Virus record (IMG/VR): IMGVR_UViG_3300032218_001256
Span: 1-59,701 of that record
Direction: 5' to 3' (one strand)
DNA length: 59,701 nt
Origin: a virus
Taxonomy: Duplodnaviria > Caudoviricetes
The notes under the pieces: generated by a model
Seen by the model: only the letters and a program-made list of their open reading frames with translations
The model's database searches: none
Told to the model about the DNA's origin: nothing
Shown here: positions 9,880 through 24,555 of the stretch, one piece after another
Position numbering within the stretch: position 1 is the first letter of the stretch
How the letters are laid out: every line of letters starts with the position of its first letter
Made by a program: the position numbers and the translations under genes

Positions 9880-9916
9880 TAGAAAAGAAAGCCCAATCTA
9901 AAATAGACTGGGCTTT
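9880..9916 (-). terminator. Intrinsic terminator
   Basis: AAAGCCCAGTCTA-ttt-TAGATTGGGCTTT followed by CTTTTCT. Confidence 0.75.
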
Positions 9917-9946
9917 ACTATAATAGATGATATAAAATAGAAAATC

Positions 9947-10804
9947 TTAATAATCTGCATCATCAGTTGCAATAACCTTGTCTGACTCTACTAAATTTGA
10001 ATCAGGGTCATAATCATGCAACTCTTTGAATGTATAATAGTCTTTACAACCATACTCTCCTACTGTATTAACAACAAAGCGCTCATGCATTTTTAGCTCA
10101 GCAGTTTTTCTGAATTTTAAACCTCTCACTACATCAGGATTGTTGTAATCAACTAGGCGCATACTCTTGATAGAATATCCAGGAAAGAATGATTTGATAA
10201 AGATGTTTTGATATGACTTAGGACCATCTCCTTTATCACTAGTTTTAACTGTAGCTAATGCACCAACAGTTTGTGTAAACTCACCATCAATTTGATCTTT
10301 CAAATCTTTTAAATCACCTGCCATAACTTTCTTCCAGTCTAGCATAATTTCAGTTTCTGGATCAGAAAAGTCAAGACCTCCTAACCATATACGTACAAAT
10401 CCTAAAAATTCCTCTTCACTTATGTGTGCTACACGACATTTACGCTTAAGAAACCATACAGGAAGAAGATCTTCACTACTAGCCCAGCTACACACACCAA
10501 TGCTATTGATGTATTGTTTCTTTGTATCATCCTTATTAGTTTTCTCACCATGTTCTAACCAGAACGTAGCAGTAGTTCTAAAGTCACTGTTTACATCTTG
10601 TAACCATACATTAACTTTCAGCTTTTGCTTAACGTCATCGTAATAGTTAGTTGCGTTACTGTCCTCTTTCAAATCAATCCCTAAGATATCTTTGAATTCT
10701 TTTGCACTTGGGTTGATAGCAAGTACTTTTGCTTCAAATATACCAACCTTCTTTGGAAAATCTCCACCTTGTGGGATTTCTCTTTTTGATCCACCTATTG
10801 CCAT
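9947..10804 (-). CDS. Putative single-stranded DNA-binding protein (crAss-like)
   Basis: 'KVLAINP' N-terminus, acidic C-terminus DDADY, position between ATPase and primase. Confidence 0.6.
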   Translation of the reverse strand: MAIGGSKREIPQGGDFPKKVGIFEAKVLAINPSAKEFKDILGIDLKEDSNATNYYDDVKQKLKVNVWLQDVNSDFRTTATFWLEHGEKTNKDDTKKQYINSIGVCSWASSEDLLPVWFLKRKCRVAHISEEEFLGFVRIWLGGLDFSDPETEIMLDWKKVMAGDLKDLKDQIDGEFTQTVGALATVKTSDKGDGPKSYQNIFIKSFFPGYSIKSMRLVDYNNPDVVRGLKFRKTAELKMHERFVVNTVGEYGCKDYYTFKELHDYDPDSNLVESDKVIATDDADY

Positions 10805-23469: not shown

Positions 23470-23640
23470 TTGAATGAATGTTTAAAGTGTTGAAACAATA
23501 AGAACAGTGAATAATATTACAATTACTATGAGTATAGCAACTTTTAATATGTAAATAATATTCTTCATTTGATTTATTTAAAAGGTTAAAAAATAGATAG
23601 TTTTAATAAGCCAGGTCTATCAACTGAGCACAATGTTATT

Positions 23641-23806
23641 CCCTCTGCATTCAATTGTAATATATATTCAGGTGTGATTTATTCCTTGAATACAACTAGT
23701 GACCAACCAGGAACAGAAATGGTCCATAAATACTATTGCGCAATAGTAGCTACTGGATTCTATATATTACAATTGCTATCCCTTGGGAAGATAGAATGAT
23801 GCATTA
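23641..23806 (-). ncRNA. Twister ribozyme-like RNA, unit B, with a long P5 insert
   Basis: UAA-UGCA-UC..CUAUC-UUCCCAAGG-GAUAG-[15-bp P5 stem + insert]-AA-UGCA-GAGGG. Confidence 0.75.
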
Positions 23807-23807
23807 C

Positions 23808-23957
23808 CCCTCTGCATTCAGTTGTAGCCCCACACCATTCTCCAGTGTTCTTCAAGTTGTCATCTATGTGACAATAGGTCTACAGGTTATATACTATCTA
23901 GCATCGATATAACCAACTACAACTGCCTGTCCTTGGGAAACAGGTTATGATGCATTA
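23808..23957 (-). ncRNA. Twister ribozyme-like RNA, unit A, with a long P5 insert
   Basis: UAA-UGCA-UC..CCUGU-UUCCCAAGG-ACAGG-[9-bp P5 stem + insert]-AA-UGCA-GAGGG. Confidence 0.75.
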
Positions 23958-24091
23958 AAGTCCTTAAGGCATATGGACAAAAGCCTACTCATTATGTACT
24001 GTGTTGAGTTCACGCCAGTAGCTCACTGGATAGTATCACATCTACAATGACTAATATATCTATTAATCCTTCTGTAATACGAGAAGTAATT

Positions 24092-24177
24092 TATTTATCT
24101 CACATATGTATAATATAACCCAAACGTGCATTGTGATTCATACAGTTGACGATTATATATATTCTGTGAGATAAATA
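24092..24177. repeat. Long inverted repeat / stem-loop
   Basis: TATTTATCTCACA (24092-24104) pairs with TGTGAGATAAATA (24165-24177); further inner pairing. Confidence 0.8.
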
Positions 24178-24179
24178 CC

Positions 24180-24308
24180 TTAAAATACCATATAGTATCT
24201 TTCATGCTCTACACATACTCTACATCCCTCAGGACAATTAAGTTGTGCATCTTCTAATGATATTGCTTCATAGAATACATTATCATTCTTATCAATTACT
24301 AAATACAT
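24180..24308 (-). CDS. Small hypothetical peptide (42 aa, not in the ORF track)
   Basis: MYLVIDKNDNVFYEAISLEDAQLNCPEGCRVCVEHERYYMVF, preceded by an A-rich leader containing AACCTTTTAAATAA. Confidence 0.45.
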   Translation of the reverse strand: MYLVIDKNDNVFYEAISLEDAQLNCPEGCRVCVEHERYYMVF

Positions 24309-24555
24309 TTCTTTATTATTTAAAAGGTTTAATGCTATATATTTTCAGTGTTCACCACAATTATAGCTCTTGTGAGAACGATATTATATACTATGATGGT
24401 CTACACTGCACCATATTTACACACAGATGTATATAATTCTGATGCTATTTTACCATAAAAGTTTATTTCTCTCTAATGGACAATGTTAAAATAACATTAG
24501 TTTATATATAAAGGTGGAATGCATTATGGATGCCCACCAACCCACCCTTATATAT

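What the first reader, a model, noticed from the sequence alone, without database searches (positions are those of the whole stretch)
23667..23916. Candidate self-processing RNA array: each ribozyme repeat carries a different structured ~90-nt cargo
Seen: the P5 stem of each unit encloses an unrelated insert (23667-23760 and 23828-23916), and each insert holds about three hairpins. Unit B has the UACUAUUGCGCAAUAGUA palindrome, GACCA/UGGUC and UAUUC/GAAUA. Unit A has GGUUAUAU/AUAUAACC, UUGUCA/UGACAA and ACAC/GUGU. Inference: a constant catalytic scaffold plus variable payload resembles a repeat-spacer array that needs no nuclease. Cutting at both U^AA sites would release a 151-nt unit (23956-23806) with 5'-OH and 2',3'-cyclic phosphate ends, the substrate of RtcB-type ligases, so it could circularise. 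Its position among early genes suggests phage-made decoy, antitoxin-mimic, anti-defence or guide RNAs. I know of no description of this arrangement.
Basis: inference. Interest (0 to 1): 0.85.

Follow-up and report, generated by a model that had tools for sequence, protein, structure and literature searches.

The report
Phage twister ribozymes carrying swappable RNA inserts
Two back-to-back copies of a twister-type self-cutting RNA sit among the early genes of a freshwater phage, each holding a different folded RNA in one optional stem, and related phages keep the same scaffold but carry dozens of unrelated inserts, which hints at what such ribozymes are for.

Summary
On the minus strand, 23957-23808 (unit A) and 23806-23641 (unit B) are two abutting copies of a twister-like motif. 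A covariance model built only from 18 relatives scores them 78.6 and 84.5 bits; the next best window hit scores 17.4. P2, P4 and P5 covary strongly. Loop L4 and the 3' GAGGG never vary in the units parsed. Rfam's type-P1 twister model is the best family for two short-P5 relatives, but far below its threshold. I therefore file this as a P3-less twister variant; cleavage is inferred, not shown.

The scaffold recurs in about 50 viral, metagenome and MAG loci, with 41 distinct P5 inserts that are almost all unrelated. Three insert families that have comparators conserve structure. Insert B is a structured RNA that stands free, just 3' of a twister, in three related phage lineages. Arrays of two or three intact units, often abutting, occur in relatives, but single units predominate.

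Most likely these ribozymes cut early transcripts and deliver passenger RNAs with defined ends. Circularisation, decoy or guide roles have no support yet. New variant of a known kind; interest 0.62.

The parts
23808..23957 (-). Twister-like unit A. U23957, then the predicted cut, then A23956. P2 is 23954-23950 with 23817-23813. P4 is 23944-23940 with 23930-23926. Loop L4 (UUCCCAAGG) is 23939-23931. P5 is 23924-23917 with 23827-23820. The GAGGG tail is 23812-23808.
   Evidence: R1 hit of 78.6 bits, E 1.1e-19, over the full model. Sequence read. Helices supported by covariation in relatives.
23828..23916 (-). Insert A, an 89-nt P5 domain. Three hairpins are predicted: GGUUAUAU/AUAUAACC, UUGUCA/UGACAA and ACAC/GUGU.
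   Evidence: Fold (z -1.63 with the closing stem included). No homologue in the fetched loci or by two pattern scans of viral contigs. One RNA-library contig, X4 record 7, shows a diverged relative of its 3' end.
23641..23806 (-). Twister-like unit B. U23806, then the predicted cut, then A23805. P2 is 23803-23799 with 23650-23646. P4 is 23794-23790 with 23780-23776. L4 is 23789-23781. The P5 arms lie within 23775-23761 and 23666-23652. The GAGGG tail is 23645-23641.
   Evidence: R1 hit of 84.5 bits, E 2.6e-21. Perfect 15-bp inverted repeat I6.
23654..23775 (-). Element X, which is insert B (23667-23760) plus its closing stem. It is a conserved multi-helix RNA: a closing stem, a CCAG/CUGG helix enclosing two hairpins, and a long third hairpin.
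   Evidence: 98% identical over 104 nt to a free-standing copy in L037/L039, and about 68-73% identical to L013 and L035. 42 predicted pairs, 10 with compensatory change across 4 sequences. Model R2 hits at 121.2 bits. No Rfam family matches.
23958..24035 (-). Conserved structured leader just 5' of unit A. It holds hairpins CCAG..CUGG (24029-24015) and ACUCA..UGAGU (24009-23987). It also holds two interleaved 4-bp helices, AGGC/GCCU and GUCC/GGAC (23986-23960), that could form a small pseudoknot ending 3 nt before the cut.
   Evidence: Alignment with L081 and L024. Compensatory differences between the window and L081 were read by eye from that alignment: two or three sequences only, so weak.
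23588..23630 (-). 'Down' element: a hairpin GUUGAUAG..CUAUC with a conserved 16-nt loop, followed by a U-run. It may mark the 3' end of the unit-B RNA.
   Evidence: Conserved in L003, L014, L015, L017, L021, L027, L029 and L036. Not called by the terminator scan. The 3'-end role is inferred.
23482..23568 (-). First downstream ORF, 28 aa and hydrophobic. The 88-aa ORF 23469-23203, with a lipoprotein-like N-terminus, follows it.
   Evidence: Read from the sequence. Context only.

Best explanation
What it is. Units A and B are two abutting copies of a P3-less, P5-bearing variant of the twister self-cleaving ribozyme. They lie in a non-coding stretch near the start of the leftward (replication and rII) gene block of a phage. 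RNA libraries holding close relatives are labelled freshwater or lake water. The host is possibly in Bacteroidota.

Proposed mechanism.
1. The leftward transcript runs through a structured leader and then the two units.
2. Each unit folds (P2, P4, the L4-GAGGG pseudoknot T1, and P5) and cuts itself 5' of its AA. The cuts fall at 23957/23956 and 23806/23805.
3. This detaches the upstream RNA.
4. It frees a 151-nt unit-A RNA with a 5'-OH and a 2',3'-cyclic phosphate.
5. Unit B, with element X built into its P5, is left as the 5'-OH cap of the downstream RNA. That RNA either ends at the 'down' hairpin and U-run (about 215 nt) or continues into the small membrane-protein genes.

Role of P5. In this phage lineage P5 is a permissive docking site. 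Unrelated structured RNAs ('passengers') are exchanged there, probably by recombination between the conserved scaffold halves. These RNAs gain defined ends and a compact ribozyme cap.

Shown here: the motif, its covariation, its recurrence, insert turnover, structural conservation of three insert families, and the modular nature of X.

Inferred: catalysis, product ends, stability, and any function of the passengers.

My odds: twister-class motif 0.9; self-cleaves in vivo 0.7; inserts are functional RNAs in their own right 0.5.
For: Motif.
- R1 hits only these two places in the window, at 84.5 and 78.6 bits.
- On the 18-relative alignment, 97.4% of cells pair, against 79.0% in shuffles (0 of 500 shuffles reach it) and 33-50% when partners are slid. 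15 of 23 pairs show compensatory change, including all 5 pairs of P4.
- My parser found 47 units in 39 of 40 loci. P2 paired in 204/205 cells, P4 in 204/205 and P5 in 304/328.
- L4 was UUCCCAAGG and the tail GAGGG in all 33 distinct units tabulated, so T1 (CCC with GGG) is always possible (helix 3).
- Seven G-U cells fit only the minus-strand RNA.

Family.
- Among 4227 Rfam families, type-P1 twister is the top hit for two short-P5 relatives. The alignments cover the whole model, placing UAA, P2 and GAGGG (18.8 bits; 20.2 bits).
- P1 is weak or absent here. A review reports that P1 is dispensable for cleavage (PMC5408937, passages read).

Context.
- 47 of 50 units are not overlapped by an ORF of 100 aa or more on either strand, and same-strand ORFs flank them.
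- Many units follow a terminator-like hairpin and U-tract directly.
- tRNAs follow the unit in L003 and L014, and a hatchet ribozyme lies in L024.
- Eight loci are syntenic relatives of the window phage and carry the unit in a shuffled island at the same place.

Passengers.
- There are 41 distinct inserts. Of 820 pairs, only L004/L011 and L017/L021 are clearly similar.
- X has 10 compensatory pairs.
- The L037/L081 insert has 4 compensatory pairs.
- Between L017 and L021, the 9 uncompensated differences all fall in unpaired columns (my count from the alignment).
- X lies free just 3' of a twister in L013 and L035, free beside a decayed twister in L037, and inside P5 in the window.

Arrays. Abutting junctions occur in L057, L079, L080, L081 and L121, and in two RNA-library contigs.
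Against: - Rfam scores (18.8 and 20.2 bits) are far below the gathering score of 67.2. The inner part of the model was skipped as a local end. No call at gathering found a twister.
- The conserved GC of L2, which forms pseudoknot T2, is absent. The review calls T2 the most critical tertiary contact. Here L2 starts CA and the matching L4 positions read GG. The preceding U/C covaries with the 3' strand as a fifth P2 pair. T2 may therefore be reduced to one or two pairs.
- L4 has an extra U, and the P4-closing pair is not the reported invariant G-C.
- Neither window unit has a P1.
- No cleavage is shown. Only contigs could be laid, and X4 record 7 and X2 record 4 run across a unit junction, so uncut RNA or DNA is present.
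- Decayed copies keep P2, P5 and the insert after losing L4 or GAGGG (L037; L079). The insert or stem may therefore matter without catalysis, or these copies may simply be decaying.
- Insert A has no comparator, so its structure is untested.
- Most loci hold one unit.
Confidence: 0.5

Rival explanations
1. Processing only. The units are active twisters whose sole job is to cut polycistronic early transcripts: to insulate genes, set 5'-OH ends and uncouple RNA stabilities. On this view the P5 inserts are tolerated, fast-turning expansions with no function of their own, beyond perhaps stabilising the fold.
For: - Units are intergenic and co-oriented with the flanking genes. 13 of 49 measurable units lie within 60 nt of the next start codon.
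- Many sit right after a terminator-like hairpin.
- Short-P5 versions exist in L005, L018, L024 and L033, so the insert is not needed.
- The inserts share no sequence.
- A review proposes transcript processing as the role of such ribozymes (PMC6765202, passages read).
Against: - Structure is conserved in the three insert families that could be tested.
- X is an autonomous module that is kept when it is outside the ribozyme.
- Two adjacent cuts 151 nt apart add nothing to mRNA processing.
Confidence: 0.27
2. Non-catalytic repeats. The motif descends from a twister but now serves as a structured intergenic repeat. It could be a recombination hotspot that shuffles early-gene cassettes, a protein-binding site or a stability element. 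Self-cleavage would be weak or lost.
For: - The motif departs from the canonical T2, P1 and P4-closing pair, and Rfam scores are sub-threshold.
- Decayed copies persist.
- The island is heavily rearranged between syntenic phages.
- RNA-library contigs cross the junction.
Against: - L4 and GAGGG never vary across the 33 distinct units tabulated, while every helix covaries. That pattern fits a catalytic core rather than a mere hairpin repeat.
- The residue before AA is U in 32 of 33 units.
Confidence: 0.12
3. Circular or ligated RNA. After double cleavage the 151-nt unit is joined end to end by a host RtcB-type ligase and acts as a stable circular RNA.
For: - Twister products carry the 5'-OH and 2',3'-cyclic phosphate ends that such ligases use (established chemistry; passages).
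- In the twister fold the two ends meet where P1 would be.
- Abutting junctions recur in relatives.
Against: - The held 52%-complete record has no RtcB or RNA-ligase family.
- No back-joined contig was seen (table 5: no joints).
- There is no P1 to hold the ends together.
- Most relatives have a single unit, which cannot release a closed unit.
Confidence: 0.06
4. Allosteric ribozymes. The P5 inserts are ligand- or RNA-sensing domains that switch cleavage on or off.
For: - P5 is one of the sites used to attach aptamers in engineered twister switches (PMC5052635, search listing only).
- The inserts are structured.
Against: - 41 unrelated inserts are hard to reconcile with a shared ligand.
- X functions outside the ribozyme in three lineages.
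- No Rfam riboswitch matches.
Confidence: 0.04

Closest known systems
Twister ribozyme, type P1 (Rfam RF03160; Roth et al. 2014, recalled and not held here; review PMC5408937 read in passages)
   Same: - A U^A cut site followed by P2.
- A P4 hairpin whose loop carries CCCA.
- A 3' GAGGG able to form pseudoknot T1.
- An optional P5 between P4 and the 3' strand of P2.
- No P3, as in about 20% of annotated twisters according to the review.
- RF03160 is the best Rfam hit for the short relatives.
   Different: - It scores 18.8-20.2 bits against a gathering score of 67.2.
- The L2 GC dinucleotide of T2 is missing.
- L4 is one U longer and ends GG.
- P1 is weak or absent.
- P5 carries inserts of up to about 140 nt that differ in nearly every copy.
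- Units can abut head to tail.
Theta (minimal HDV-like) ribozymes next to tRNAs in gut phages (PMC10879173; abstract in the search listing only)
   Same: These are small self-cleaving ribozymes in phage genomes, placed beside non-coding RNA genes and proposed to process them. Here twisters sit just 5' of tRNAs in L003 and L014.
   Different: - The ribozyme class is different.
- They act at tRNA 3' trailers.
- The passenger is next to the ribozyme, not inside one of its stems.
Ribozyme clusters near phage-like genes in bacteria (reviews PMC6765202 and PMC8782182, passages read)
   Same: Twister, hammerhead, hatchet and pistol ribozymes are reported close to each other and to phage-type genes, with unknown function. 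Here a hatchet lies on the same contig as two twister units (L024).
   Different: The passages I read do not mention abutting units or large variable P5 domains.
Engineered ribozyme-flanked RNA cassettes (ribozyme-guide-ribozyme designs and the twister-based 'Tornado' circular RNA system; recalled, not read here)
   Same: Self-cleaving ribozymes define both ends of a cargo RNA without host nucleases. The 5'-OH and cyclic-phosphate ends can be ligated by RtcB.
   Different: - In those designs the cargo lies between two ribozymes.
- Here it lies inside a stem of each ribozyme, so the ribozyme stays attached.
- The arrangement here is natural, and its products have not been observed.

Membership tests
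Twister ribozyme | Scissile U-A step with a highly conserved A, next to P2 or L1 | tested here: met
   UAA precedes P2 in both window units. The residue before AA is U in 32 of 33 distinct units and C in 1. Rfam aligns it to the UAA of RF03160.
Twister ribozyme | Essential stem P2 | tested here: met
   5 pairs, 100% of cells paired, 2 pairs with compensatory change. 204/205 cells paired in 41 distinct units.
Twister ribozyme | Essential stem P4 closing loop L4 | tested here: met
   5 pairs, all with compensatory change, 98.9% paired. However, the closing pair is not the invariant G-C reported in the review (PMC5408937).
Twister ribozyme | Strongly conserved nucleotides in L1 and L4, and pseudoknot T1 between them | tested here: met
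   L4 is UUCCCAAGG and the tail is GAGGG in all 33 distinct units tabulated. CCC with GGG can pair in 18 of 18 rows. They never vary, so there is no covariation evidence (helix 3).
Twister ribozyme | Pseudoknot T2: the conserved GC of L2 pairs with two bulged L4 nucleotides | tested here: inconclusive
   No GC is present in L2. L2 reads CAUU, CAUAA or CACAA, and L4 ends GG. A (U/C)C-with-GG pairing is possible only if P2 is read as 4 bp. The U/C covaries with the 3' strand instead: U-A 12, C-G 4, U-G 2.
Twister ribozyme | Stem P1 | tested here: not met
   By eye, no complementary flank exists for either window unit. P1 is 3-6 bp or absent in relatives. The review states that P1 is dispensable for cleavage, so this does not exclude activity.
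Twister ribozyme | Score at or above the Rfam gathering threshold (RF03160, 67.2 bits) | tested here: not met
   Nothing is found at gathering in the window or in 14 loci. L005 scores 18.8 bits and L024 20.2 bits in small evalue searches. Window units with their inserts are not found even at E 10.
Twister ribozyme | Site-specific self-cleavage giving 5'-OH and 2',3'-cyclic phosphate ends | not testable with these tools
   Only assembled contigs of RNA libraries could be laid, and these show no ends.
   At most three intact units were seen per locus. Only 4 of 35 loci in the unbiased set hold two units. Spacing is irregular, from 0 to about 400 nt.

The most novel reading that the evidence does not exclude
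A lineage of freshwater phages uses the P5 stem of a twister ribozyme as a natural cassette site. A constant self-cutting scaffold expresses, trims and caps an ever-changing repertoire of small structured RNAs without host nucleases. In arrays it releases them as unit-length RNAs, possibly ligatable. The RNAs would act on the host, for example as decoys against RNA- or tRNA-targeting defences. The turnover of 41 unrelated inserts would then be the footprint of an arms race.
Probability: 0.22. Interest if true: 0.85.

Novelty: new variant of a known kind. Interest (0 to 1): 0.62.

Why it matters
The biological role of most small self-cleaving ribozymes in bacteria and phages is still unknown (PMC6765202, passages read). 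This family offers a concrete, testable case.

- One ribozyme scaffold is physically fused to dozens of different structured RNAs.
- At least one of those RNAs, element X, is an independent module that always travels with a twister.
- If cleavage is confirmed, the family would show ribozymes acting as end-defining, protective carriers for phage small RNAs. That would be a natural counterpart of engineered ribozyme-flanked cassettes.
- The 41 inserts would then be a catalogue of candidate phage regulatory or anti-defence RNAs.

The finding also shows that the curated twister models miss a whole phage-borne variant. Twisters in viral metagenomes are therefore probably under-counted.

Tried and rejected
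Rfam.
- Gathering and evalue searches of the window found no twister. I attribute this to the 90-nt P5 inserts plus the divergence of the variant.
- Element X gave no Rfam match.

Other searches of the window.
- No tRNA in the window.
- No similarity to INPHARED phages by blastn.

Junction pattern in viral contigs. Of 35 loci, 34 were chance matches in coding DNA; only L057 was real.

X pattern scan. Of 9 loci, L038 and L040-L043 were chance coding matches.

Genome-contig scan. Of 62 loci, only 12 hold a unit by R1. My rough arithmetic expected several dozen chance matches for that pattern.

Insert A. Two pattern scans gave one chance coding hit (L159) and nothing else. Its conservation could not be assessed.

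Antisense idea. The longest perfect complement of either insert elsewhere in the window is 13 nt. Shuffled inserts reach 10-14 nt. Rejected for the held half-genome.

Host-derived inserts. In 301 genomes of the family of G001, only G001's own twister core matched. Five other hits had E 0.005-0.009 over 20-28 nt. This gives no support.

Ligases. No RtcB or RNA_ligase Pfam family is in the record, which is only 52% complete.

Hidden homology between inserts. A crude global-identity script suggested 63% identity for L012 against L014. A local-alignment test with shuffles did not bear this out, so I dropped it.

RNA libraries.
- Shares were 5-7% of words, and only contigs were available.
- Parts of the stretch without cover, and the habitat labels, are not used as evidence.
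- X4 record 6 is a 136-nt fragment (23644-23779) with adapter sequence at both ends. Its ends do not coincide with the predicted cut sites, and it may be PCR copies of one molecule. No conclusion is drawn from it.
- Contigs X1 record 1 and X2 record 3 both stop 19 nt beyond X in the L037-like form. This is at most a weak hint of a 3' end.

Promoters and terminators. The promoter scan was at chance level (17 found against 13.1 expected), and no terminator was called inside the array.

Tools and papers not available.
- Roth 2014 and Weinberg 2015 are not held.
- Supplements are closed. These sources may describe large P5 domains or tandem twisters that I could not see.

None described it.
Full report
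**Setting**

The window is a 59.7-kb IMG/VR virus record, estimated 52% complete. Genes on the minus strand up to about 24300 include a DNA polymerase, a DnaB-like helicase and rIIA/rIIB-like proteins. Genes on the plus strand from about 24530 include terminase, portal, major head and tail-fibre proteins. The finding lies on the minus strand, a few hundred bases into the leftward block, in a stretch of about 700 nt with only tiny ORFs.

**The observation**

Read on the minus strand, two units share one architecture:
- U^AA;
- a 5-nt P2 strand;
- a short linker;
- a 5-bp P4 closing the loop UUCCCAAGG;
- one C;
- a long P5 stem with a large insert;
- GA;
- the complementary P2 strand;
- GAGGG.

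Unit A is 23957-23808 and unit B is 23806-23641. A single G separates them. The repeats and the perfect 15-bp P5 of unit B also appear in the repeat finder (D2, D9, I6).

**Is it a twister?**

Rfam finds nothing in the window, even at E 10. A pattern taken from the 5' half found 34 viral loci. Each has the matching 3' half at a variable distance. Four of these units have short P5 hairpins.

On two of those short-P5 units, type-P1 twister (RF03160) is the best of 4227 Rfam families. The alignment runs over the whole model and places UAA, P2 and GAGGG. The scores are only 18.8 and 20.2 bits against a gathering score of 67.2, and the inner part is skipped.

I aligned 18 relatives without the window and tested the structure I propose. 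The results:
- 97.4% of cells pair, against 79.0% in shuffles (0 of 500 shuffles reach this) and 33-50% when partners are slid.
- 15 of 23 pairs show compensatory change.
- All five P4 pairs covary.
- The three T1 pairs never vary.

A wider parse gave 47 units in 39 of 40 loci, with P2 at 204/205, P4 at 204/205 and P5 at 304/328 cells paired. L4 and GAGGG were invariant in the 33 distinct units tabulated.

The covariance model R1 built from that alignment hits the window only at the two units, with 84.5 and 78.6 bits. The next hit scores 17.4 bits.

I compared these features with the defining features given in a review (PMC5408937, passages).
- Met: the cut-site UA, P2, P4, the conserved L4 and L1 residues, and T1.
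- Known options: the absence of P3 and the presence of P5.
- Not met but tolerable: P1 is weak or missing, and the review says it is dispensable.
- Deviating: the conserved GC of L2 that makes T2 is missing, L4 has one extra U, and the P4-closing pair differs.

I therefore file the units as a divergent twister variant. Catalysis is inferred.

**The family and its inserts**

R1 gives 51 hits at E up to 0.001 in 40 viral and metagenome loci. It also gives 14 hits in 12 of 62 pattern-selected genome contigs. By their record titles, several of those contigs are Bacteroidota MAG contigs.

P5 ranges from a minimal hairpin to about 140 nt. There are 41 distinct inserts of at least 35 nt beyond a 10-bp stem. 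Of the 820 pairs, only two (L004/L011 and L017/L021) have real similarity. The scaffold halves on either side stay 71-100% identical in the pairs compared.

Where comparators exist, the inserts behave as structured RNAs:
- Element X has 42 predicted pairs, 10 of them with compensatory change, across four sequences.
- The L037/L081 insert has 35 pairs and 4 compensatory changes, together with a 23-nt loop expansion.
- L017 and L021 differ at 11 columns. Two form a compensated pair. By my count, the other nine all lie in unpaired columns.

Folding z-scores of whole P5 domains average -2.8, and 18 of 28 are below -2. The closing stem inflates these values.

**Insert B is a module**

Insert B (element X) is 98% identical over 104 nt to a copy in L037/L039 that is not inside a ribozyme. 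That copy is closed by its own extra outer helix and lies a few bases 3' of a twister whose GAGGG and L4 are mutated. Diverged copies in L013/L030 and L035 also stand free, just 3' of intact twisters.

A model of X finds only these four lineages among 46 sources, and Rfam has no match. X is therefore an autonomous structured RNA that always travels with a twister, either embedded or immediately downstream.

Insert A has no relative in anything I could fetch. The one exception is a diverged 3' end in an RNA-library contig.

**Arrays**

In the set found without asking for a junction, 4 of 35 loci (window, L010, L024, L035) hold two units. A junction pattern then found more:
- L057 has three units. 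Two abut, and one carries an extra insertion of about 118 nt between P4 and L4.
- L079 has three intact units, two of them abutting, plus two decayed units.
- L080 and L081 have two abutting units each.
- L121 has two units 3 nt apart.

L081 shares the window's upstream leader but carries different inserts.

**Context**

Eight loci (L003, L013, L014, L019, L021, L035, L036, L037) are syntenic relatives of the window phage, with proteins up to 97% identical. At the same place they carry a shuffled island. Depending on the phage, the island holds:
- a terminator-like hairpin and U-tract;
- one or two twisters;
- X, another long structured stretch, or tRNAs;
- a conserved 'down' hairpin;
- and then small ORFs.

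47 of 50 units are not overlapped by an ORF of 100 aa or more on either strand.

**RNA evidence**

Eleven RNA libraries hold small shares of the stretch, and four were laid. Only contigs were available.
- The contigs show that the L037-like X region, and relatives with abutting junctions, occur in RNA libraries.
- Two contigs cross a junction uncut.
- No joints were reported.
- No ends can be read from contigs.

This neither shows nor excludes cleavage.

**Mechanism and rivals**

The best reading is that the units are self-cleaving processing modules of the early transcript. The two cuts would free a 151-nt unit-A RNA. They would leave unit B, with X, as the 5' cap of the downstream RNA. P5 would serve as a docking site for passenger RNAs exchanged by recombination between scaffold halves.

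The rivals are:
- processing only, with neutral inserts (0.27);
- non-catalytic structured repeats (0.12);
- circular RNA (0.06);
- allosteric switches (0.04).

No ligase gene was found. I found no antisense target in the window and no host-derived origin for the inserts.

**Novelty**

Twisters, their optional P5, and their clustering near phage genes are known. In seven literature searches I found no description of:
- large, hypervariable, structured P5 inserts;
- a passenger RNA that alternates between the inside of a twister and the position just 3' of one;
- abutting twister arrays.

The two primary twister papers and all supplements could not be read. I rate the finding a new variant of a known kind, with interest 0.62.

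Noticed in passing
window 23958-24035 (-); L081:5040-5160; L024:8650-8800 (-): A block of about 50-75 nt just upstream of the first ribozyme is conserved in three contigs. It precedes twister arrays in the window and L081, and a hatchet ribozyme in L024. Its hairpins change in a compensatory way: ACUCA/UGAGU against GUUCA/UGAAC. Next to the cut site, two interleaved 4-bp helices could form a pseudoknot. It may be a leader or promoter-proximal element of ribozyme-bearing transcripts.
   Followed up: partly
window 24087-24182 (-); L019:424-506: A long imperfect hairpin has 18-nt arms and 60 nt between them. 83 nt of it are 98.8% identical to L019, although neighbouring proteins of the two phages are only about 75-85% identical. 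An RNA-library contig (X6 record 8) covers 24003-24173. It overlaps a 36-aa ORF and may be another non-coding RNA or a recently exchanged element.
   Followed up: no
window 23588-23630 (-); L003, L014, L015, L017, L021, L027, L029, L036; also 5' of the decayed twister in L037: This is a conserved hairpin with a 16-nt conserved loop (ACCUGGCUUAUUAAAA), followed by a U-run. It closes the non-coding island in many relatives. Its beginning resembles a tRNA D-arm, but no tRNA is called.
   Followed up: partly
L024:8518-8654 (-): A hatchet ribozyme (80.7 bits, gathering score 51) lies on the same viral contig as two twister-variant units.
   Followed up: no
L057 (- strand, unit 3, about 9882-10130) and L037:5430-5548: Two units carry a second kind of large insertion (about 95-118 nt) between the 5' strand of P4 and L4. 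The two insertions begin and end alike (GUGGAUA ... UUAAUCAGCU). This looks like a recurrent second docking site or a shared inserted domain.
   Followed up: no
L079 (- strand positions about 75-195 and 1560-1680); L037:5527-5673: These are decayed units. In one the P4 and L4 part is deleted. In another it is replaced by a UUCG-type hairpin. In L037 the tail reads GAGUG and L4 reads CCCAAGA. All three still keep P2, P5 and their inserts.
   Followed up: partly
L003:5482-5581 (-); L014:6324-6462 (-): tRNA matches of 100 and 139 nt lie directly 3' of the twister. They carry long internal stretches, either a long variable arm or an intron-like insertion.
   Followed up: no
L012, L014, L015, L023, L029: about 150 nt directly 3' of the twister: A conserved, apparently structured stretch lies between the twister and the tRNA. 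It is about 83% identical between L012 and L014, while their P5 inserts differ. It has no Rfam match at gathering in L014.
   Followed up: no
window 23574-23603 and 24316-24345; also before start codons in L013, L019, L020, L035: A motif (UUUUUAACCUUUUAAAUAA on the coding strand) recurs 10-20 nt upstream of ATG start codons of small early genes. It may be a phage promoter or a translation-initiation signal in a host that lacks Shine-Dalgarno use.
   Followed up: no
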